Source: Candidatus Gottesmanbacteria bacterium (GTDB taxonomy: Bacteria > Patescibacteriota > Microgenomatia > 2-02-FULL-39-11). From it: 64,000 nucleotides of DNA. How positions within the stretch are numbered: the stretch's first letter is position 1; the number at the start of each line of letters is the position of its first letter. Positions 48,252-60,080 of this stretch are shown one piece after another. The stretch is taken from positions 899 to 64,898 of the forward strand of contig JACPZE010000003.1 of NCBI GenBank assembly GCA_016195685.1, in the 5' to 3' direction. The translations under genes were made by a program, and so were the position numbers. Below the pieces are notes generated by a model. It worked only from the letters and a program-made list of their open reading frames with translations, was not told where the DNA came from and did no database searches.

Positions 48252-49457
48252 TTAATATGCTTGGGCGAAATACCAGCGGTGGGTAGATGCTTTGCCGCAA
48301 TAAATACATTCCCCTTTATCTTCTTTAGCATCCAAAGGTAATACCCTACTGGTTGCTTTAGTTTCTTCTTTTATCTTGGCTTCACAGACCGGATCTTCAC
48401 ACCAGAAAGTATAGATCAATCCCTTTTTTGTCTTCATTATTTCTTTAAACTCGACGTAGTTTTCTATTTTGTGTGTATTTTCTTCTCGGAATTTTTTCAT
48501 CCGCCCAAAAATATTTATCTGTATTTCATCCAGTAATTTTTTCATCTCGCTTACCAACTTTGTCCTACTTACCTTTATTTTCTCTCCCGTATCTCGTCTT
48601 ACTACTGTCATTTCATTTGCATCTATTTCCCTTTCTCCCAGTTCAATTCTCAAAGGTACTCCTTTTAGTTCCCATTCGTTGAATTTCCATCCTACGGTTT
48701 TTTCTTCTCTATCATCTACCTGTACTCGGAAACCTTGTTTATTTAAAAGTATTTTTAATTCTTCGCTGTATTTTTTAACTTTTGAAGTGATTTTGATAGG
48801 TACAATCACTACTTGGATCGAAGCAATTTTAGGCGGAAGGATAAGTCCCTGGTCATCTCCGTGTGAAAGTATTAAGGCACCTATTACACGGGTTGTTTCT
48901 GCCCAACTAGTTTGCCATACATATTGCTGCTTACCTTCCTTATCCAAATATTTTATATCAAATACTTTGGCAAAATTGTCTCCAAGATGATGTGACGTAC
49001 CCATCTGGATAACTTTTCCATCCGGCATAAGTGATTCGAGGGAATAAGTAATAGCTGCCCCGGGAAATCTTTCACTTTGGGATTTTTTTCCAGTAATCAC
49101 TGGAATGGCTAATATTTCCTCATCAAATTTTGCATATATTTTTAGTATTTTGCGGGCAAAATTATCTGCGTCTTCAAAAGTTGCATGAGCAGTATGCCCT
49201 TCCTGCCAAAGAAATTCAGTCGTACGTCTGTGCGGAATAAACAGAGGAAAATAAGCGTTCTTTACTCCCAATTCTTTAAATCGATCATCCAGATAATCTT
49301 GAATTTTTTCCCAAATCTCGTAACCGTAAGGCCTAATGATCATACAGCCCTTTACCGGTGAGTAATCCGCCATTTCGGCTTTGAGAATAACATCGGTATA
49401 CCACCTGTCAAAATCCTGAGACTTTTTTGCGATCTCTTTTTTATCGAACTGTTTCAT
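48252..49457 (-). CDS. proS: prolyl-tRNA synthetase, archaeal/eukaryotic type
   Basis: class II core with archaeal-type N-terminus (DFDRWYTDVILKAEMADYSPVKGCMIIRPYGY) and C-terminal Cys-rich Zn module ending ...Y. Confidence 0.85.
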   Translation of the reverse strand: MKQFDKKEIAKKSQDFDRWYTDVILKAEMADYSPVKGCMIIRPYGYEIWEKIQDYLDDRFKELGVKNAYFPLFIPHRRTTEFLWQEGHTAHATFEDADNFARKILKIYAKFDEEILAIPVITGKKSQSERFPGAAITYSLESLMPDGKVIQMGTSHHLGDNFAKVFDIKYLDKEGKQQYVWQTSWAETTRVIGALILSHGDDQGLILPPKIASIQVVIVPIKITSKVKKYSEELKILLNKQGFRVQVDDREEKTVGWKFNEWELKGVPLRIELGEREIDANEMTVVRRDTGEKIKVSRTKLVSEMKKLLDEIQINIFGRMKKFREENTHKIENYVEFKEIMKTKKGLIYTFWCEDPVCEAKIKEETKATSRVLPLDAKEDKGECIYCGKASTHRWYFAQAY

Positions 49458-52977: not shown

Positions 52978-53348
52978 TGTCATTGCGAGCGAAGCGAAGC
53001 AATCTCTATAATAAAATTAGTGAAAAAACAATATTTTGTTTATATTGCTACGAATACAACGAATCGTGTTCTTTATACAGGAGTCACTAATAACTTAATT
53101 AAAAGAAATTTCCAACATAAAAAACAGTTTATATCCAGTTTTACCTCAAAATATAAAATTAATAAACTCGTTTATTATGAAATATTCGATGATATCAATG
53201 AAGCAATTAAAAGAGAAAAACAAATTAAAGGAGGATCTCGTAAAAAGAAAATAGATTTAATAAGAAACCTGAATCCTGGTTTTATTGATTTATATGAAGA
53301 AATTATTAAGTAAAGATTGCTTCGTCGCTAACGCTCCTCGCAATGACA
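52978..53348 (+). mobile_element. compact GIY-YIG element bounded by imperfect terminal inverted repeats
   Basis: left end tgtcattgcgagcgaagcgaagcaatct (52978-53005); right end agattgcttcgtcgctaacgctcctcgcaatgaca (53314-53348); outer 12 nt and inner 11 nt are exact inverted complements. Confidence 0.5.
53020..53313 (+). CDS. small GIY-YIG nuclease-family protein (97 aa)
   Basis: GIY-YIG core YFVYIATNTTNRVLYTGVTNNLIKRNFQH and conserved downstream E/R (YYEIFDDINEAIKREKQIK). Confidence 0.7.
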   Translation: MKKQYFVYIATNTTNRVLYTGVTNNLIKRNFQHKKQFISSFTSKYKINKLVYYEIFDDINEAIKREKQIKGGSRKKKIDLIRNLNPGFIDLYEEIIK

Positions 53349-53373: not shown

Positions 53374-55563
53374 ATGTATACTTATATTATGAAGGAAGAA
53401 AAAGTAGTATTGGAGCTTCGGACTCCCAAAACAGCCGAGGAAACACCTGAACATATGCAGCAGGTTTTCTCCGCGCTTTTTTCCGGCGGACACATCCCCC
53501 ATTGGAAAAGGCTTTGGATAAAAGTACGCACCCTTTCTTTTGAAATCGCATCGTTTAACCAAAGCATACATTTCTATACCGTTATCCCTAGGCCTTTTAA
53601 GACCTTCATCGAAAGCCAGCTCACCAGCCAGTATCCCAAGATCCTTATATCCGAAACGCCGGATTACATGGCAAATATCACCAAAAACAGATTTTTAGCC
53701 ATAGGAAATCTGCAACAAGCCGCCCCATTTTATTACCCTATAAAAACTCATGCGGATTTTAAAGAAATTGATTCCATATCTTCTATTCTGGGTGTACTCT
53801 CCAAATTCAGCCCGGAGGAAAGCTGCGTCATACAGATGGTGATAGAACCTCCGCATTTCAACTGGCAAGGTATGATACAACGGATGGTAGACCGAGGCAT
53901 TCCCGATCCTACTACCACGGCACCCAACCGGACCAAATCATTCCCTCATGCAAGTTTGATCGAGCAGAAAGTCAAACAAAGTGGTTATCGTACCTACATC
54001 AGAATCATGGTAGGAGCAGAAGATAACAAAAAAGCCCTATCCCTTCTTTTTAATATCGCCGGATCGTATGGAGCCTTTGCCTTGGGTGAAGGCAATAGAC
54101 TTGTTCTTCGTCGTCCCAGGCTTTTTTGGAAAAAAGTCATCTACAATAGAATACTGAAGCGCGAAAAAAGCCATTATCCCAGACACCAGGTATTAAATAC
54201 AGGCGAACTGGCTACCATCTGGCATCCGCCCACGATGCTACTTGCTGGGATAAAAAATATCGTCTGGGGCAGATCACTCGTGGGAGAACCTCCCCAAAAT
54301 CTGCCTGTTGCCGCAAATATCACAGAAATTGAAAAAGGGGATATAAATTTCATCGCCCGGGCTGAATTTAAAAATACCCTCACCACTTTTGGTATAAAAA
54401 GACCGGACAGAAGAAAACACATTTACATAATAGGGAAAACCGGTACCGGTAAATCTACCATGATCGCCAATATGGCTATAAACGACATGAGGAATCGGGA
54501 AGGTCTAGCTGTCATAGACCCTCATGGAGACCTATCTGACATACTTTTAAATTATATTCCCTCATATAGGATAAACGATGTCATATATTTGGAACCTTTT
54601 GATGTGGAACATCCCTTTTGGATGAACCCGTTGGAAGTGAAAAATCCCATCCACAAAGAATTGGTCACCTCCGGAATCGTATCGATCTTTTCCAAGCTTT
54701 ATGCCAAATCCTGGGGTCCCAGGCTTGAGTATATACTGCGGAATGTCATCCTTACTCTTATGGATTATCCGGATGCCACACTGGTTATGGCTTTGGATCT
54801 TTTATCTGACCAGAATTTCCGCCAGGGAGTACTAAATAAAGTAGAAAATAAGATCCTGCAGAATTTTTGGCACAATGAATTTGACAAAATGCACCCCAGG
54901 CTTAAAAGCGAGGCTATAGCTCCAATTCAAAATAAAGTAGGCCAGTTTGTACAATCTCCCACTATACGTCAAATCATCGGACATCCTACATCTACCATAG
55001 ACCTGGAGGAAGTGATGAACCAGGGGAAAATACTGATACTGAATCTTGCACAGGGTAAATTGGGTGAAGACAACGCAGCGCTTTTGGGTGCCATGTTTAT
55101 CACCAAAATGCAATTGGCAGCCATGAACAGGGTAAATTTGCCGGAGGAACAGAGGCGTGATTTCTACCTTTATGTAGATGAGTTTCAAAACTTCGCTACC
55201 ACATCTTTTATAAAAATATTATCTGAGGCGCGGAAATACCGCCTTGATCTTATCATGGCCAACCAATACATCGGACAAGTGGAGGAAGAAGTGCAAAAAG
55301 CTATTTTTGGCAATGCCGGATCTCTTATTTCTTTTGTCATCGGCGCCCAGGATGCTAGTGCTCTGACTAAGGAATTCGGCCAGTGGTATAAAGAAGAAGA
55401 CCTTGTAAATTTGGGTTCTTATCAGATAATCATCAAACTGGCTATAGATAACCTGACTTCACTTCCATTTCACGCACTCACTTTGCCACTTCCTAAATCA
55501 AAGAATCAAAACCGCGATAAAGTCGTGCGCCTCTCCAAAGAAAGATACACTAAGAAGCCTTAG
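53374..55563 (+). CDS. FtsK/HerA/TraG-VirD4-superfamily P-loop ATPase (DUF87/T4CP-like), 729 aa
   Basis: Walker A IIGKTGTGKST followed by AVIDPHGDL; Walker B LYVDEFQNF; downstream RKYRLDLIMANQYIGQ arginine-finger/Q motif region; non-TM 340-aa N-terminal domain. Confidence 0.6.
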   Translation: MYTYIMKEEKVVLELRTPKTAEETPEHMQQVFSALFSGGHIPHWKRLWIKVRTLSFEIASFNQSIHFYTVIPRPFKTFIESQLTSQYPKILISETPDYMANITKNRFLAIGNLQQAAPFYYPIKTHADFKEIDSISSILGVLSKFSPEESCVIQMVIEPPHFNWQGMIQRMVDRGIPDPTTTAPNRTKSFPHASLIEQKVKQSGYRTYIRIMVGAEDNKKALSLLFNIAGSYGAFALGEGNRLVLRRPRLFWKKVIYNRILKREKSHYPRHQVLNTGELATIWHPPTMLLAGIKNIVWGRSLVGEPPQNLPVAANITEIEKGDINFIARAEFKNTLTTFGIKRPDRRKHIYIIGKTGTGKSTMIANMAINDMRNREGLAVIDPHGDLSDILLNYIPSYRINDVIYLEPFDVEHPFWMNPLEVKNPIHKELVTSGIVSIFSKLYAKSWGPRLEYILRNVILTLMDYPDATLVMALDLLSDQNFRQGVLNKVENKILQNFWHNEFDKMHPRLKSEAIAPIQNKVGQFVQSPTIRQIIGHPTSTIDLEEVMNQGKILILNLAQGKLGEDNAALLGAMFITKMQLAAMNRVNLPEEQRRDFYLYVDEFQNFATTSFIKILSEARKYRLDLIMANQYIGQVEEEVQKAIFGNAGSLISFVIGAQDASALTKEFGQWYKEEDLVNLGSYQIIIKLAIDNLTSLPFHALTLPLPKSKNQNRDKVVRLSKERYTKKP

Positions 55564-55647
55564 GCTATAAATACACATCCTTATACATGTTTTAATACAT
55601 ATCTCAATACTTGACAGAATATGTATTTTGTGATATGTTAGCTTTGT

Positions 55648-55902
55648 ATGGACACGATAATTATTCCCATAACGGATTTTTTAAGGAAAGCCGGAGAATA
55701 CGCGGATAGACTTCCTTCACTTGAGAAAATCATCATAACCAGAGGCGGAAGACCGTTTGCTGAATTAAAGGCATCTCCCCAGGAAAAAAATAGAAAACTC
55801 ATAGAACTTATAAAAAGTTTTAACGGTAAACTTTTTGAAAATGAAGAAGTATGGAAAGCAGTATATACCAGAAGAAATAGAAAAAAGCCCATTACAATAT
55901 AA
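55648..55902 (+). CDS. Phd/YefM-family antitoxin
   Basis: 84 aa; IIPITDFLRKAGEYADR...IIITRGGRPFAELKA typical Phd/YefM. Confidence 0.55.
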   Translation: MDTIIIPITDFLRKAGEYADRLPSLEKIIITRGGRPFAELKASPQEKNRKLIELIKSFNGKLFENEEVWKAVYTRRNRKKPITI

Positions 55903-56262
55903 ATGAATTTTTTAATTGACACCTCTATACTTATAGAAATGCTTAGGAAAAATAAAGATGTTTTGGATTTTCTAGCTAATCATCTGGAAGATAGGTTTCT
56001 CACAAGCAGTATATGTGAGGCAGAAATTTGGGAAGGAGTTTATAGAGAAAAACCGATTAATTTTGTAAAAAGAAAGAAAAATGTTGAAGTTTTATTGGAA
56101 TCCCTGACAGGGACCATTACTTTTGATTCAAATCAGGCACAGATTGCAGGACAAATAAGATCTTCCCTTTCCTTAAAGGGAGAATTGACGGGTGACCTGG
56201 ATATTTTGATAGCCGCATCTGCTGTAACAAACGATGCAACCCTATATTTAATTTACCCATAA
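55903..56262 (+). CDS. VapC-type PIN-domain toxin (C-terminus looks truncated)
   Basis: MNFLIDTSILIE PIN N-terminus; immediately follows antitoxin; ends ...TNDATLYLIYP without the usual terminal acidic motif. Confidence 0.6.
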   Translation: MNFLIDTSILIEMLRKNKDVLDFLANHLEDRFLTSSICEAEIWEGVYREKPINFVKRKKNVEVLLESLTGTITFDSNQAQIAGQIRSSLSLKGELTGDLDILIAASAVTNDATLYLIYP

Positions 56263-56800: not shown

Positions 56801-57116
56801 GAATTTTGTTGTAAGTTCCGGTCCTAAATTGTGGGTATTTGCACTCACAACCAAAAACTGAAACTTACGACTTCGGAGCAAACGCTTCGAATAGCACTTT
56901 AACAAGGGAAATAGTGAAATTTATACCTCTAAATTATCTGGTTGTAGAGCTTCACATGGCAGAAAAATCTTTTCTACCAACTGTAGCTTTACAATCGGAT
57001 GAAAAAGGGTAAATAATGTTTGGTAAATATAGTTAATATTTAAGGATAGCGCTGTTGTTATAGAAAACATAATCTCAGTGACAGAAGATCTAAATCCGAC
57101 GTCACAAGAGGTTAAA

Positions 57117-58007
57117 ATGTTTAAAAGCAAAAGCACGCGGATCGCGGTAATTCTCGCGATCATCATGTTCGTCACGACTTTCGCTTTTACCGCGAACGTC
57201 GCAAGCGCACAGGGTCCCACACCTACGAAAAGCGTTGGTAGCAACAACGTTAATCAGGACTGTTTCGACTTGAAAAGTCCGTCTGGACCCCGAACAAAAC
57301 CTGGGGGGAAAGATAGCGCCGGGAACACCTGCGTCGCTGGCTTGCTCTGGACTGACCCCCAAGGCCGGTCGCTCAACGTCCCATACAACGGATACGCACT
57401 CAGTGCATCTAGCACAACGACGGGGACGATTACGCCAGGTGTGTCACTCACGAACACGGCTCCCTCCGACAATCTGGCAGCACCAACGGGTTCGACAAGA
57501 CCGAAGTATAATGTGTGCACGTTCAACGAGGACGGCACAAAGTATACGGTCGAACCAGATGCAGCCCCGGCAGTGGTCCACGCGCCTAACGGTACAATCG
57601 TTACTTTGGCGTGCACTTGGGATGATTCTCGCGGGGCAGTACCGGATCGGTCGGAAAAAACAGCGCTCGAAGTACAAATCGAAACCTGGCGGAGTGTCCT
57701 CTGGACAGGGATCACGATGATCCTCTCCGTTGTGTTTGCGATTGGCGCGCTGGTAGCAGCTGGGTTCATCGCGGTAGCGATGGTGCATGGCGACTTGTTC
57801 CGATCGGTGCGTGACTTCTGCTCTTCATGCACATCCCTTTGGTGGGGGTGGCGGCGGAGCACCCGGTGGTGGAGAACACGCTGCGAAAGAAAACCACTAG
57901 AAGCAGGCTCCTCAATGAGTCGACTTCGCTGTACGAAAGGTACCAGAACGAAAGATAAGGGGCCGCCGGGGAGTGGAGAAGCTGTTTTGTGGACCAACAC
58001 AAAATAA
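57117..58007 (+). CDS. GC-rich (foreign-composition) secreted protein with C-terminal TM anchor
   Basis: signal peptide MFKSKSTRIAVILAIIMFVTTFAFTANVASAQ; Thr/Ser/Pro-rich ectodomain with Cys; TM helix ITMILSVVFAIGALVAAGFIAVAMV; third-codon positions mostly G/C, unlike every other gene. Confidence 0.55.
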   Translation: MFKSKSTRIAVILAIIMFVTTFAFTANVASAQGPTPTKSVGSNNVNQDCFDLKSPSGPRTKPGGKDSAGNTCVAGLLWTDPQGRSLNVPYNGYALSASSTTTGTITPGVSLTNTAPSDNLAAPTGSTRPKYNVCTFNEDGTKYTVEPDAAPAVVHAPNGTIVTLACTWDDSRGAVPDRSEKTALEVQIETWRSVLWTGITMILSVVFAIGALVAAGFIAVAMVHGDLFRSVRDFCSSCTSLWWGWRRSTRWWRTRCERKPLEAGSSMSRLRCTKGTRTKDKGPPGSGEAVLWTNTK

Positions 58008-58176
58008 ATGCGGTTCACCGCAGCTTCCTCCGCCTTCGGCGCGACATCACAACCAAACATCATCACTATTTCCCTTATCTTTCAAATCTTCAGAATTCTG
58101 GAAGTTTGGGAGATAGGACAGAACAATTTCTAATTACTGATTTTTAATTTCTAATAAATTTAGATTGGAAATTGGG

Positions 58177-58422
58177 TTAATTTTGGGGTACGATTTCGAG
58201 GCGTTCTTCTATAAGTTCAACTCTCTTCCGGAGATCGAGATACTCTTTGTCGAAAAAATCAGCGATTGTACTTATATCTTTACGGATTTTTGTATTATCT
58301 TTTTTTATCACCTTCACATCTGATTTTAAAGCATTCAAATCAGTTTTTATGGGATGAAGTTCTTCTTTAATAAATTTCATTAAAGTATTTCTAATAGATA
58401 GAAGATCAATTTTTGTCAACAT
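58177..58422 (-). CDS. small coiled-coil hypothetical protein (81 aa)
   Basis: ORF only; its promoter and first 11 codons are duplicated 580 bp away. Confidence 0.4.
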   Translation of the reverse strand: MLTKIDLLSIRNTLMKFIKEELHPIKTDLNALKSDVKVIKKDNTKIRKDISTIADFFDKEYLDLRKRVELIEERLEIVPQN

Positions 58423-58511
58423 GAAAAGATATTACCAAGTGAAAATTACGAAGTCAATTACTAATCAGAAGAATTGCATTTGACAAAAAAGTTAAAAGCA
58501 GGAAAATAGAG

Positions 58512-58949
58512 GTGCTTATGACCGATCATAGAATTGATGCGGATAGAATCGGTGAAGTAGCAGCTAAATACCGGTCGAAATTGGATTATCATCAAAGAGA
58601 CGTTGTTCAGAGTTTCGATATTTTTGTTTACAGAAATGCTTCTAGAATAATTAATAACCCCAGAGGTGACCAATCTCCGGTAGGTTTGAATTGGGCACAT
58701 CAATCTGAAGCAAAAACGACCGCAGATACATTAAGAGCAGATTTACAAAGAGCTCGAGTTTTTAAAAAAATTCCACTAAGTGCACTAATTTATTTTACCG
58801 CCGGAGATATAATCGCATACCAACAAGAAAATATAAGAGATCCCAGAAGAAGGGAATATCCCCATGTCATTTTGCAAAGTGTTGCTTTTGATGTAGTTGG
58901 AGTAATTTTTCCTAATAATGGATTGAGAAGAGATATACCGAATTGGTAA
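58512..58949 (+). CDS. hypothetical protein (145 aa) between duplicated segments
   Basis: ORF only; no domain recognised. Confidence 0.3.
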   Translation: MLMTDHRIDADRIGEVAAKYRSKLDYHQRDVVQSFDIFVYRNASRIINNPRGDQSPVGLNWAHQSEAKTTADTLRADLQRARVFKKIPLSALIYFTAGDIIAYQQENIRDPRRREYPHVILQSVAFDVVGVIFPNNGLRRDIPNW

Positions 58950-58974
58950 GGTGAATCCTTATTGTATTTCTGAT

Positions 58975-59038
58975 AGATAAAAGATCGATTTTTATCAGCA
59001 TGAGGAAATATTATCAAGTGAAAATTGTGAAGTCAATA
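58975..59038 (-). repeat. second copy of a ~65-nt promoter/5'-CDS segment (first copy 58397-58460)
   Basis: about 85 % identity; copy 2 encodes MLIKIDLLSIRNT then stops after 29 codons (copy 1 begins MLTKIDLLSIRNT). Confidence 0.6.
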
Positions 59039-59099: not shown

Positions 59100-60080
59100 C
59101 TAGTGTCCCCTATTTATCCAGTAATTTTCATCCACTTTACCGTTTGCCAAATCATTCCAATAATCTTCCCCCATTAAATTTCCGCTTCTTTCTTTCATAC
59201 GCTTTTTCATGAGGGATATTTTTGCATATAATATGCTGTCAGATTGAGCAATATTCATAATATCCTGATACTTATTCATCAACCACCATGCAACAGTTGC
59301 CTGATCTTCATCAGCATCTACAGTTCCGTACCGTTCAGCAAATCCTTGCGGTCTTGAGTTAATATCAAAATATTTCCAGGTTCTTCTATCAAAAAGATTA
59401 AAAGCTGGCAGTGGCCACTGATATTCATATAACTCTGCACCTTCCGGACCATTCAAATTTACCCATTCAGCATCCCCGATTGGAAATTTTTGCTCCCTTT
59501 TGATTGCAAGATGATTTAACTCATGATGAAAACCCCACGGCTCACCATTATCATCCAGCTCTACAAAAAATGAGTTTTCGATCGGACATGCTTCTGAACG
59601 GGAAGAACATGCCTTTCCACCCCAATCGTTACCATCTTGCTTCAATTTCTTAATTAACCTAATTTCATCTAATTTAGTGTACCTTATATATGTGGGAGGA
59701 TATTTGGCCAGTTCCTTCTTAAGGCTATAAATCGCGTTTAATTCCTCACAGGCCGTAAGTTTTTGGCCTGAAAATTTTGCCCTTTTTTCTTCATCAGTCA
59801 AATCTCCAGAATAGATATATACACCATAACGTACCTTCAATTCTGCTTTCAATTGCGCAATAGCTTTATTTTGACTTTCACCATCTGCTGGACAACCTAA
59901 ATCTGAAAATGCAGCTGTTTGAACCCCAACCGTAGAAGAATTAATACTTGCATAAGTGGGAGTAGTGGTGGTAAAACCTCGTTGCGTTCCTGTACCAGCT
60001 AATTTTTGTAACGCGTCAATTGAATCTACTATAGGTTTCGCACCAAATACATATGCGGCGGCTTGTGCGCTATTACGCAA
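59100..60080 (-). CDS. HExxH-motif putative zinc metallopeptidase (C-terminal part of a split gene)
   Basis: FHHELNHLAI motif; begins at TTG directly after an in-frame stop; overlaps upstream ORF in another frame. Confidence 0.4.
   Translation of the reverse strand: MRNSAQAAAYVFGAKPIVDSIDALQKLAGTGTQRGFTTTTPTYASINSSTVGVQTAAFSDLGCPADGESQNKAIAQLKAELKVRYGVYIYSGDLTDEEKRAKFSGQKLTACEELNAIYSLKKELAKYPPTYIRYTKLDEIRLIKKLKQDGNDWGGKACSSRSEACPIENSFFVELDDNGEPWGFHHELNHLAIKREQKFPIGDAEWVNLNGPEGAELYEYQWPLPAFNLFDRRTWKYFDINSRPQGFAERYGTVDADEDQATVAWWLMNKYQDIMNIAQSDSILYAKISLMKKRMKERSGNLMGEDYWNDLANGKVDENYWINRGH

What the first reader, a model, noticed from the sequence alone, without database searches (positions are those of the whole stretch)
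53374..56262. Lone FtsK/HerA/T4CP-type ATPase followed by Phd-VapC, preceded by a GIY-YIG element: candidate defence or mobile module
The 729-aa protein has Walker A IIGKTGTGKST with the DUF87/HerA-like AVIDPHGDL motif and Walker B LYVDEFQNF. It also has the downstream RKYRLDL-IMANQ motif typical of FtsK/HerA/TraG-VirD4 ATPases. Its 340-aa N-terminal domain has no TM helices and is unrecognised. It is not accompanied by other T4SS components. It is immediately followed by a Phd/YefM-VapC pair and preceded by a GIY-YIG element. HerA/FtsK-type ATPases with unknown N-domains are recurrent cores of anti-phage systems and of DNA-translocation machinery. Whether this one is part of a defence system, a relic conjugative element or a DNA-uptake factor cannot be resolved from sequence.
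Basis: partly seen in the sequence, partly recalled or inferred. Interest (0 to 1): 0.6.

Follow-up and report, generated by a model that had tools for sequence, protein, structure and literature searches.

The report
Patescibacterial T4CP-like ATPase, core gene
The 729-aa ATPase is an ordinary member of a very large, conserved family of type-IV-secretion "coupling-protein-like" motors found in almost all Patescibacteria (CPR bacteria); it is a core chromosomal gene, and the toxin-antitoxin pair and GIY-YIG gene beside it are unrelated insertions, not parts of a defence or mobile module.

Summary
The ORF, its Walker A/B, AVIDPHGDL and RKYRLDL-IMANQ motifs, the lack of TM helices, and the GIY-YIG and Phd-VapC neighbours are all real. 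The "defence or mobile module" reading is not supported.

More than 7,900 homologues exist and every source name among the 120 best hits is patescibacterial; the closest are Gottesmanbacteria, 91-56% identical over the full length. Their N-domain is Pfam DUF8128.

Close relatives carry the gene at the same housekeeping position, frr | ATPase | tsf-rpsB. It is as conserved as EF-Ts and ribosomal protein S2, while the genes around it differ in every genome.

In one sister clade (15 of 15 loci) the orthologue sits inside a T4SS locus: VirB6/B3-like, TrsD-like, VirB4, M23 hydrolase and a pilin array, next to dnaA.

Published work already records about two such T4CP homologues per patescibacterial genome, mostly far from virB4 and of unknown role.

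Best reading: a soluble second ATPase of the patescibacterial T4SS. A T4SS-independent role is not excluded.

Verdict: new member of a known kind; modest interest.

The parts
53374..55563 (+). Gene for the DUF8128 + T4CP-like ATPase (729 aa; the true start is possibly the ATG at 53389, giving 724 aa)
   Evidence: ORF. Pfam TrwB_AAD_bind, DUF87 and TraG-D_C. More than 7,900 homologues. AlphaFold2 model with pLDDT 87.4.
53392..54219 (+). N-terminal domain, residues about 7-282: DUF8128, with a predicted VirB4/TrwK N-terminal-domain-like alpha/beta fold
54205..54306 (+). Conserved linker motifs ELATIWHPP ... IKNIVWG ... GEPPQNLP between the N-domain and the motor
   Evidence: Invariant columns E278, H284, N295, W298, E305, P307 and L310 in 65 sequences. 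Coordinates.
54433..54459 (+). Walker A, GKTGTGKST
   Evidence: Read directly. Invariant G354, K355, G357, T358, G359, K360 and T362. Aligns to the TrwB P-loop.
54508..54534 (+). AVIDPHGDL motif, which aligns to TrwB IVDPNGDM
   Evidence: D382-L387 invariant.
54646..54978 (+). All-alpha insertion, residues about 425-535, between Walker A and Walker B; resembles the all-alpha domain of TrwB and the helical bundle of VirB4
55168..55194 (+). Walker B, LYVDEFQNF
   Evidence: D602 and E603 invariant.
55225..55269 (+). EARKYRLDLIMANQY: arginine-finger and sensor region
   Evidence: R620, K621, N630 and Q631 invariant. Aligns to TrwB GRKAGLRVVAGLQS.
52979..53347 (+). Neighbour, not part of the system: GIY-YIG gene (53020-53313) bracketed by inverted repeats GTCATTGCGAG...GAAGCAATCT
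   Evidence: Pfam GIY-YIG 1.3e-14. Repeats. A GIY-YIG gene next to the orthologue was found in only one other locus of about 83 (L034).
55648..56262 (+). Neighbour, not part of the system: Phd-like antitoxin (55648-55902) plus VapC/PIN toxin (55903-56262, apparently C-terminally truncated). A promoter-like site lies at 55611-55639, though such sites are no more frequent here than in shuffled sequence.
   Evidence: No homologue beside the ATPase in any of about 83 related loci.

Best explanation
The gene encodes the Microgenomates form of the Patescibacteria-wide T4CP-like ATPase (Pfam DUF8128 + TrwB_AAD_bind). It is a vertically inherited core chromosomal gene, not a module with its neighbours.

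**Shown here**
- It is a RecA-fold NTPase of the VirB4/VirD4/HerA branch with every catalytic motif intact.
- Its first roughly 280 residues are predicted to adopt the fold of the VirB4/TrwK N-terminal domain.
- It has no membrane anchor, whereas many distant family members have one N-terminal TM helix.
- In a sister clade the orthologue is embedded in the patescibacterial T4SS locus.
- The genome of a close relative with the same synteny is listed as carrying virB4.

**Inferred**
- The protein forms a ring, like its structural relatives.
- Its VirB4-like N-domain docks on the cytoplasmic face of the T4SS membrane platform (VirB3/VirB6/VirB8-like proteins, VirB4/TrsD), which is encoded elsewhere in the genome.
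- ATP hydrolysis then feeds or energises a substrate (DNA or protein, not known) through that machine. It would act as a soluble second T4SS ATPase that stands in for a classical membrane-anchored coupling protein.
For: **Family and conservation**
- More than 7,900 homologues. All source names among the 120 best hits are patescibacterial. They are 56-91% identical over 98-100% of the length and share the same DUF8128 + TrwB_AAD_bind architecture.
- The 80 best genome loci come from 80 different assemblies, so the gene is single-copy at this level of similarity.

**Synteny**
- The arrangement frr | ATPase | tsf-rpsB is shared with L001, L007 and L049; L005 keeps frr and RseP upstream.
- Window versus L001: ATPase 79% identical, EF-Ts 79%, S2 69%, RRF 65%.
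- The motor domain is about 70% identical, and the N-domain about 38%, across clades.

**Link to the T4SS**
- 16 of about 80 loci have T4SS genes within 10 kb.
- 15 of these have a full-length ATPase ORF, and they form one monophyletic clade in which every member is T4SS-adjacent. The sixteenth (L024) had no complete ATPase ORF and was not in the tree.
- In that clade the ATPase lies between PrgI-like/TrsD-like/VirB4/M23 genes and a pilin array, beside dnaA-dnaN.

**Structure and sequence**
- By sequence, TrwB is the only solved relative.
- 24 of 41 full-length distant representatives carry an N-terminal TM helix before DUF8128.

**Literature (PMC12102498)**
- 5,713 VirD4-type T4CP homologues in 2,918 of 3,035 Patescibacteria genomes.
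- Its Table S1 lists virB4 as present in GCA_001780955.1, the genome of L001.
Against: - About 64 of 80 related loci, and four more distant ones (L085-L088), show no T4SS genes within 8-10 kb. Their neighbours are housekeeping genes.
- The literature finds only 148 of 5,713 T4CP homologues near virB4. It also reports that the T4CP homologue of Ca. Southlakia epibionticum is dispensable for epibiotic growth while the T4SS genes are essential. The primary study saw no recognisable coupling protein in that T4SS cluster.
- This subfamily has no TM anchor.
- Two relatives carry a C-terminal S1 nucleic-acid-binding domain and one carries NUDIX. That could point to a cytoplasmic nucleic-acid role.
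- Profile-profile comparison found no sequence link between DUF8128 and the patescibacterial VirB4 or TrsD, so the N-domain link rests on predicted structure only.
- Whether this window's own genome has a T4SS is unknown.
Confidence: 0.5

Rival explanations
1. Exapted, T4SS-independent motor. The family keeps the VirB4/VirD4 ancestry but now works on its own as a cytoplasmic or membrane-proximal nucleic-acid translocase or remodeller, for example in DNA processing, segregation, uptake or RNA handling. This would be a housekeeping function of Patescibacteria.
For: - The gene sits among translation and replication genes in most lineages.
- Conservation is very high, about 70% in the motor domain across clades.
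- Two relatives have S1-domain fusions and one a NUDIX fusion.
- In two distant members the gene directly upstream encodes a Sigma70_r4/HARE-HTH protein.
- The authors of PMC12102498 themselves raise exaptation.
- T4CP homologues are found in 96% of genomes, virB4 in 80%.
Against: - A whole clade keeps the orthologue inside the T4SS locus.
- The N-domain fold is otherwise seen in VirB4 and a T7SS scaffold, both parts of secretion machines.
- Many distant members are membrane-anchored.
- The 96% versus 80% difference is what two copies versus one copy would give in MAGs that are about 80% complete (1 - 0.2^2 = 0.96). This is my inference; it means the difference does not show independence.
- The Saccharibacteria homologue is non-essential, which argues against an essential housekeeping role.
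Confidence: 0.3
2. Anti-phage defence module. A HerA/DUF87-type ATPase (MADS mad8-like, DndH-like or HerA-effector type) works with the adjacent VapC toxin and/or the GIY-YIG nuclease.
For: - The best PADLOC hit is mad8 (E 2.6e-14), with weak HerA hits.
- Nuclease and toxin genes are adjacent.
Against: - The PADLOC hits cover only the shared ATPase domain or the P-loop. No other mad, dnd or Sir2/DUF4297 partner is present.
- Neither neighbour is conserved: VapC in 0 and GIY-YIG in 1 of about 83 related loci.
- The gene is syntenic, single-copy and of normal base composition. This is the opposite of the patchy distribution typical of defence islands (general knowledge).
- The N-domain is not a HAS barrel.
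- VapC looks truncated.
Confidence: 0.04
3. Relic of an integrated conjugative element. The ATPase would be a leftover coupling protein whose T4SS and relaxase have been lost.
For: T4CP-type sequence with no T4SS genes in 64 kb. Mobile-looking neighbours: a GIY-YIG cassette, a TA pair and a GC-rich ORFan.
Against: - All catalytic residues are intact and invariant across thousands of homologues.
- The gene is vertical and syntenic.
- No integrase, relaxase or element borders were found. The minimal locus L007 has the ATPase alone between frr and tsf, so the mobile-looking genes are later insertions at this spot.
- Relaxases are rare in Patescibacteria: 109 in 3,035 genomes.
Confidence: 0.03

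Closest known systems
Patescibacterial VirD4-type T4CP homologues (Quinonero-Coronel et al. 2025, Microb Genom, PMC12102498); Pfam architecture DUF8128 (PF26449) + TrwB_AAD_bind (PF10412)
   Same: Same phylum-wide distribution, chromosomal location usually far from virB4, no relaxase, about two copies per genome, and unknown role. Orthologues of the window protein carry exactly this Pfam architecture.
   Different: Nothing essential differs. The window gene is one more member. I could not run the CONJScan t4cp1/t4cp2 profiles used in the paper, so the equation with their hits is inferred from the Pfam T4CP domains. The paper does not discuss the N-domain.
TrwB/VirD4 coupling proteins (R388 TrwB, PDB 1e9r)
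   Different: TrwB has an N-terminal two-helix membrane anchor and no VirB4-like N-domain, and it is encoded with a relaxase on a conjugative plasmid. Here there is no TM segment, a 280-aa VirB4-NTD-like domain, no relaxase, and a core chromosomal location. NCBIfam T4CP models score far below their cut-offs.
VirB4/TrwK T4SS ATPase (PDB 7o42, 8rtd; Thermoanaerobacter VirB4 C-terminal domain, 4ag5)
   Different: No hit to the VirB4 Pfam families (CagE_TrbE_VirB, AAA_10, P-loop_TraG) that the co-resident patescibacterial VirB4 matches. The HMM of that VirB4 does not find the window protein. hhalign aligns only the region around the P-loop. By sequence the motor is T4CP-like.
HerA / DndH(DptH) / MADS mad8 ATPases of repair and defence systems
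   Different: No HAS-barrel N-domain, no partner nuclease or effector that is conserved, and no island-like distribution.

Membership tests
Patescibacterial DUF8128 + T4CP-like ATPase family | N-terminal DUF8128 (PF26449) domain | tested here: met
   The test is indirect because the local Pfam copy lacks PF26449. Full-length homologues at 56-91% identity carry the precomputed PF26449 label. Residues 1-340 alone retrieve 1,456 clusters. In all nine long matches scanned with Pfam, and in those scored for N-terminal TM helices, the domain lies at or near the N-terminus, upstream of a T4CP/DUF87-type motor.
Patescibacterial DUF8128 + T4CP-like ATPase family | C-terminal T4CP-type motor (TrwB_AAD_bind, DUF87, TraG-D_C) above Pfam thresholds | tested here: met
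   46.8, 28.8 and 23.6 bits against cut-offs of 20.5, 23.2 and 22.
Patescibacterial DUF8128 + T4CP-like ATPase family | Patescibacterial host, chromosomal, single orthologue per genome | tested here: met
   Named hits are Gottesman-, Shapiro-, Levy-, Roizman-, Woese- and Daviesbacteria. The flanks are housekeeping genes. The 80 loci come from 80 assemblies.
Canonical VirD4/TrwB coupling protein | N-terminal transmembrane anchor | tested here: not met
   The highest 19-residue hydropathy mean is 1.29. Only 1 of 120 close homologues has a hydrophobic N-terminal segment.
Canonical VirD4/TrwB coupling protein | Nucleotide-binding domain with Walker A/B plus an all-alpha domain | tested here: met
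   [not shown]
Canonical VirD4/TrwB coupling protein | Encoded with a relaxase and/or T4SS genes of a conjugative element | tested here: not met
   No T4SS component and no recognisable mobile-element gene in the 64-kb window; relaxases were not searched for with dedicated profiles. A sister clade is T4SS-adjacent, but no relaxase was called in the one locus with Pfam-annotated gene calls, L003.
Canonical VirD4/TrwB coupling protein | Passes curated T4CP equivalog models (TraD, CD1115, etc.) | tested here: not met
   Best scores are 33.7 bits against a cut-off of 250, and 32.5 against 366.
VirB4 ATPase | VirB4-type N-terminal domain fold | tested here: met
   [not shown]
VirB4 ATPase | Sequence membership in the VirB4 families (CagE_TrbE_VirB, AAA_10, P-loop_TraG) | tested here: not met
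   No such Pfam hit at E <= 0.1. An HMM of patescibacterial VirB4 finds nothing in the window. hhalign gives 53% probability over the P-loop region only.
HerA-type or MADS/Dnd defence ATPase | Conserved partner genes (Sir2, DUF4297, NurA, other mad or dnd genes) next to the ATPase | tested here: not met
   PADLOC finds nothing in the six neighbouring proteins. The neighbours are not conserved across about 83 loci.
HerA-type or MADS/Dnd defence ATPase | HAS-barrel N-terminal domain (HerA) | tested here: not met
   The N-domain matches VirB4 NTD and EccE. No HerA chain appears among the N-domain fold matches listed.
Type II toxin-antitoxin VapBC (neighbour) | PIN toxin with four acidic catalytic residues, preceded by a small antitoxin gene | tested here: inconclusive
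   PIN hit at 2.6e-8. The antitoxin stop codon abuts the toxin start codon. Only profile positions 1-110 of 130 are covered and the C-terminus is aberrant, so the fourth acidic residue appears to be lost. The Phd hit is below threshold.
GIY-YIG nuclease (neighbour) | GIY-YIG catalytic domain | tested here: met
   Pfam 54.7 bits against a cut-off of 22.6.

The most novel reading that the evidence does not exclude
DUF8128 ATPases may be a distinct third branch of T4SS motors. They join a VirB4-type N-terminal docking domain to a VirD4-type (T4CP) motor and are near-universal in Patescibacteria. Some are anchored by one TM helix; in Microgenomates they are soluble. They could be the evolutionary intermediate between VirB4 and VirD4. 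They could either replace the missing coupling protein of the essential patescibacterial T4SS or have become an autonomous nucleic-acid translocase, as the S1-domain fusions hint.
Probability: 0.25. Interest if true: 0.6.

Novelty: new member of a known kind. Interest (0 to 1): 0.33.

Why it matters
The gene itself is ordinary for its phylum, so the window holds no new defence or mobile system.

The family is still worth a note. The patescibacterial T4SS is essential for epibiotic growth in the one species tested, and its gene cluster there shows no recognisable coupling protein. Nearly every genome nevertheless carries these orphan T4CP-like genes of unknown role.

Two results here make a testable link between the orphan ATPase and the machine. 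First, the DUF8128 domain is predicted to have the VirB4 N-terminal fold. Second, one whole clade keeps the gene inside the T4SS locus.

In none of the papers found and read here is the N-domain fold described. That search covers open-access papers only.

Tried and rejected
- **Defence-system membership.** PADLOC gave only ATPase-domain hits and no partner genes.
- **Curated NCBIfam T4CP, CedD and HerA models.** All scored far below their cut-offs.
- **Sequence link between DUF8128 and patescibacterial VirB4 or TrsD-like proteins.** hhalign found no signal beyond the P-loop. The alignments were shallow, Neff about 2.
- **AlphaFold DB fold search.** The afdb50 library was not available.
- **Searching for "DUF8128" in papers.** No paper found.
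- **Finding virB4 on the contigs of the closest relatives by matching contig lengths.** The 120 listed VirB4 hits were all from the T4SS-adjacent clade, so this gave nothing for the window's clade. I relied instead on Table S1 of PMC12102498 for GCA_001780955.1.
- **Table S3 of that paper.** It is cut off in the stored copy before that genome.
- **Names for distant family members.** None are on record.
- **Homologues of the GC-rich ORF at 57.1-58.0 kb.** None found.
- **Promoter and terminator scans.** Counts are no higher than in shuffled sequence.
Full report
**Observation**

The ORF at 53374-55563(+) is real and 729 aa long. The true start may be the ATG at 53389. The closest homologue (91% identical, 724 aa) begins MEEKAVLEL, which matches the window protein from residue 6-7 on.

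- GKTGTGKST, residues 354-362
- AVIDPHGDL, residues 379-387
- LYVDEFQNF, residues 599-607
- EARKYRLDLIMANQY, residues 618-632

Their key residues are invariant, or conserved in at least 90% of sequences, in an alignment of 65 homologues. Pfam places the C-terminal half in the T4SS coupling-protein families, all above threshold: TrwB_AAD_bind at 46.8 bits, plus DUF87 and TraG-D_C. The protein has no hydrophobic segment of TM strength; the highest 19-residue hydropathy mean is 1.29.

The neighbours are also real.
- The GIY-YIG gene lies at 53020-53313 (E 1.3e-14).
- A small gene at 55648-55902 gives only a sub-threshold Phd hit.
- A PIN/VapC gene lies at 55903-56262.
- The VapC match stops at profile position 110 of 130 and the protein ends aberrantly (...NDATLYLIYP*). 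It is probably truncated.

**What the organism and locus are**

The window is low-GC (about 37%) and full of housekeeping genes. The ATPase has more than 7,900 homologues at E <= 1e-5. Every source name given among the 120 best hits is patescibacterial (CPR). The closest are Gottesmanbacteria, 91-56% identical over the full length. Their N-terminal part carries the precomputed Pfam label PF26449 = DUF8128.

A scan of one genome per species returned 494 confirmed loci. The best 80 come from 80 different assemblies, so the gene is single-copy at this level of similarity.

**Core gene, variable neighbours**

In Gottesmanbacteria GCA_001780955.1 (L001, orthologue 80% identical), gene order on both sides matches the window: holB-ybeY-rpsU-HIT-DHH-proS-...-rseP-frr | ATPase | ... 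| tsf-rpsB.

- In L007 (75% identical) the ATPase is followed directly by tsf.
- L001 has a 292-aa ORF, a Y1 transposase and Fic/MazE at that position.
- L005 has other small genes there, which I did not annotate.
- The window has Phd-VapC plus about 4 kb of unrelated ORFs.

No homologue of the window's VapC, or of any ORF between 56.3 and 60.4 kb, occurs beside the ATPase in about 83 related loci. A GIY-YIG homologue occurs in one of them, L034.

Between the window and L001 the ATPase is 79% identical. That compares with EF-Ts at 79%, S2 at 69%, ProRS at 70% and RRF at 65%. The gene's base composition is that of the genome.

So the ATPase is a vertically inherited core gene. The space around it is an insertion hot spot for TA pairs and small mobile genes. 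This removes the basis for a "defence or mobile module".

PADLOC agrees. The ATPase hits mad8 (51 bits) and HerA models only over the shared motor or P-loop, and none of six neighbours hits anything.

**Link to type IV secretion**

In L003 (orthologue 56% identical) the ATPase is transcribed divergently from a block of PrgI-like (VirB6/VirB3-type), TraC/TrsD-like, VirB4-like and M23 peptidase genes. That block lies next to dnaA-dnaN. Downstream of the ATPase come a CTP_transf_like gene, a 1,402-aa protein and four T4SS_pilin genes.

HMMs built from these proteins find T4SS components within 10 kb of the ATPase in 16 of about 80 loci, and none in the window. In a neighbour-joining tree of the ATPases, the 15 T4SS-adjacent loci that have a full-length ORF form one clade. 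Every member of that clade is T4SS-adjacent. The sixteenth locus, L024, had no complete ATPase ORF and is not in the tree. The window groups with L001, L005, L006 and L007 in the frr/tsf clade.

Elsewhere the neighbours are housekeeping or cell-envelope genes: DUF11, YtxH, M23/LysM, Rho, VanW, FtsH, DnaB, GroEL and Mur ligases.

**What is already published**

Quinonero-Coronel et al. 2025 (PMC12102498) report the following.
- 5,713 VirD4-type T4CP homologues in 2,918 of 3,035 Patescibacteria genomes.
- Only 148 of these are near virB4.
- virB4 is present in 2,417 genomes, and relaxases are almost absent.
- The homologue in Ca. Southlakia epibionticum is dispensable although the T4SS is essential, so exaptation "cannot be ruled out".

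Their Table S1 lists virB4 as present in GCA_001780955.1, the syntenic relative of the window. "Lone" is therefore true of the locus and probably not of the genome.

Wang et al. 2023 noted that the Se T4SS cluster lacks a recognisable coupling protein.

One caution, which is my own inference. With about two T4CP copies against one virB4 copy, MAGs that are about 80% complete would show 96% versus 80% occupancy, which are the published figures. The wider occurrence of T4CP therefore does not show that it is independent of the T4SS.

**Structure**

The full-length AlphaFold2 model has a mean pLDDT of 87.4. A separate model of residues 1-308 has pLDDT 87.6 and pTM 0.87.

For the N-domain:
- Foldseek agrees independently. 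Its 14 best hits (E 2.6e-6 to 8e-4, probability 1.00) are all TrwK chains.
- No P-loop ATPase other than VirB4 appears in those lists, so the match must be to VirB4's N-terminal domain rather than its motor. This is an inference, because the tools do not print the aligned target ranges.

The protein therefore combines a VirB4-like N-domain with a motor that is T4CP-like by sequence. I found no sequence-level link between DUF8128 and the patescibacterial VirB4 or TrsD-like proteins, so the N-domain assignment rests on predicted structure.

**Family variation**

Residues 1-340 alone retrieve 1,456 50%-identity clusters. In all nine long members scanned with Pfam the domain lies upstream of a T4CP/DUF87-type motor.

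- Of 41 full-length distant representatives, 24 have a single hydrophobic N-terminal helix before DUF8128. Only 1 of 120 close (Microgenomates) homologues does.
- Two relatives carry a C-terminal S1 domain and one carries NUDIX.
- One locus has two DUF8128 paralogues two genes apart.
- In two distant loci the gene directly upstream encodes a Sigma70_r4/HARE-HTH protein.

**Mechanism**

Shown:
- an intact, strongly conserved VirB4/VirD4-branch NTPase;
- a VirB4-NTD-like N-domain (predicted);
- core chromosomal inheritance;
- embedding in the T4SS locus in one clade;
- membrane-anchored relatives.

Inferred:
- ring assembly;
- docking of the N-domain on the T4SS cytoplasmic platform, as VirB4's N-domain does on VirB3/VirB8 in R388 (established knowledge from the 7o42/8rtd work);
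- ATP-driven engagement of an unknown substrate.

I give this reading about 0.5. The main rival is a T4SS-independent nucleic-acid motor, at about 0.3. Defence module and relic conjugative element are each below 0.05.

**Verdict**

The class assignment is right, but the module idea is wrong. The gene is a new member of a known and catalogued family whose function is still open.

The one addition beyond the papers read here is the VirB4-like fold of DUF8128, together with the clade-wide embedding in the T4SS locus.

Noticed in passing
window 52979-53347; L034 4955-5300; L023 2495-2565; L033 12931-13013: The 97-aa GIY-YIG gene is bracketed by inverted copies of GTCATTGCGAG...GAAGCAATCT. A homologous GIY-YIG gene with similar 'TGTCAT + hairpin' ends sits directly upstream of the ATPase orthologue in L034, just after a tRNA-like sequence (read by eye, not scanned). 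Two other loci have the 11-mer as inverted pairs about 60 nt apart with no gene between them. This looks like a small mobile or palindrome-associated GIY-YIG cassette.
   Followed up: partly
window 57100-58050: A stretch of 51-64% GC sits in a genome of about 37% GC. The ORF at 57117-58007(+) has an N-terminal signal/TM segment and a C-terminal TM segment. It has no Pfam hit above threshold (only two sub-threshold matches) and no homologue among 5.8 billion proteins. It is an ORFan of foreign composition, or an assembly chimera.
   Followed up: partly
window 55903-56262: VapC appears C-terminally truncated. The PIN profile is covered only to position 110 of 130 and the protein ends ...NDATLYLIYP*, so the fourth acidic residue is probably lost. 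The TA pair may be decaying.
   Followed up: partly
window 48252-49457 (-): The prolyl-tRNA synthetase ORF is 401 aa, against 479 aa in L001 (and 480 aa for the ORF as called here in L007). BLASTP shows an in-frame internal gap of about 77 residues (L001 residues 77-153) inside the catalytic core. This is either a real deletion or an assembly artefact.
   Followed up: partly
window 58377-58458 and 58956-59037: An 82-nt direct repeat, 83% identical, with copies 579 nt apart. The copies lie on either side of the ORF at 58512-58949 in the variable stretch downstream of the ATPase.
   Followed up: no
L085 8756-9784 and L088 6199-7242: In two distant DUF8128 family members the gene directly upstream, on the same strand, encodes a protein of about 345 aa with Sigma70_r4 and a faint HARE-HTH match. 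It may be a conserved partner in other CPR classes. L085 also has a second DUF8128 paralogue two genes upstream.
   Followed up: no
[not shown]
   Followed up: no
window 59100-60080 (-): A 326-aa ORF in the variable stretch gives a sub-threshold match to the Leptospira LIC13305 lipoprotein family (E 2.6e-14, 53 bits against a cut-off of 250). It has no homologue beside the ATPase in related loci.
   Followed up: no
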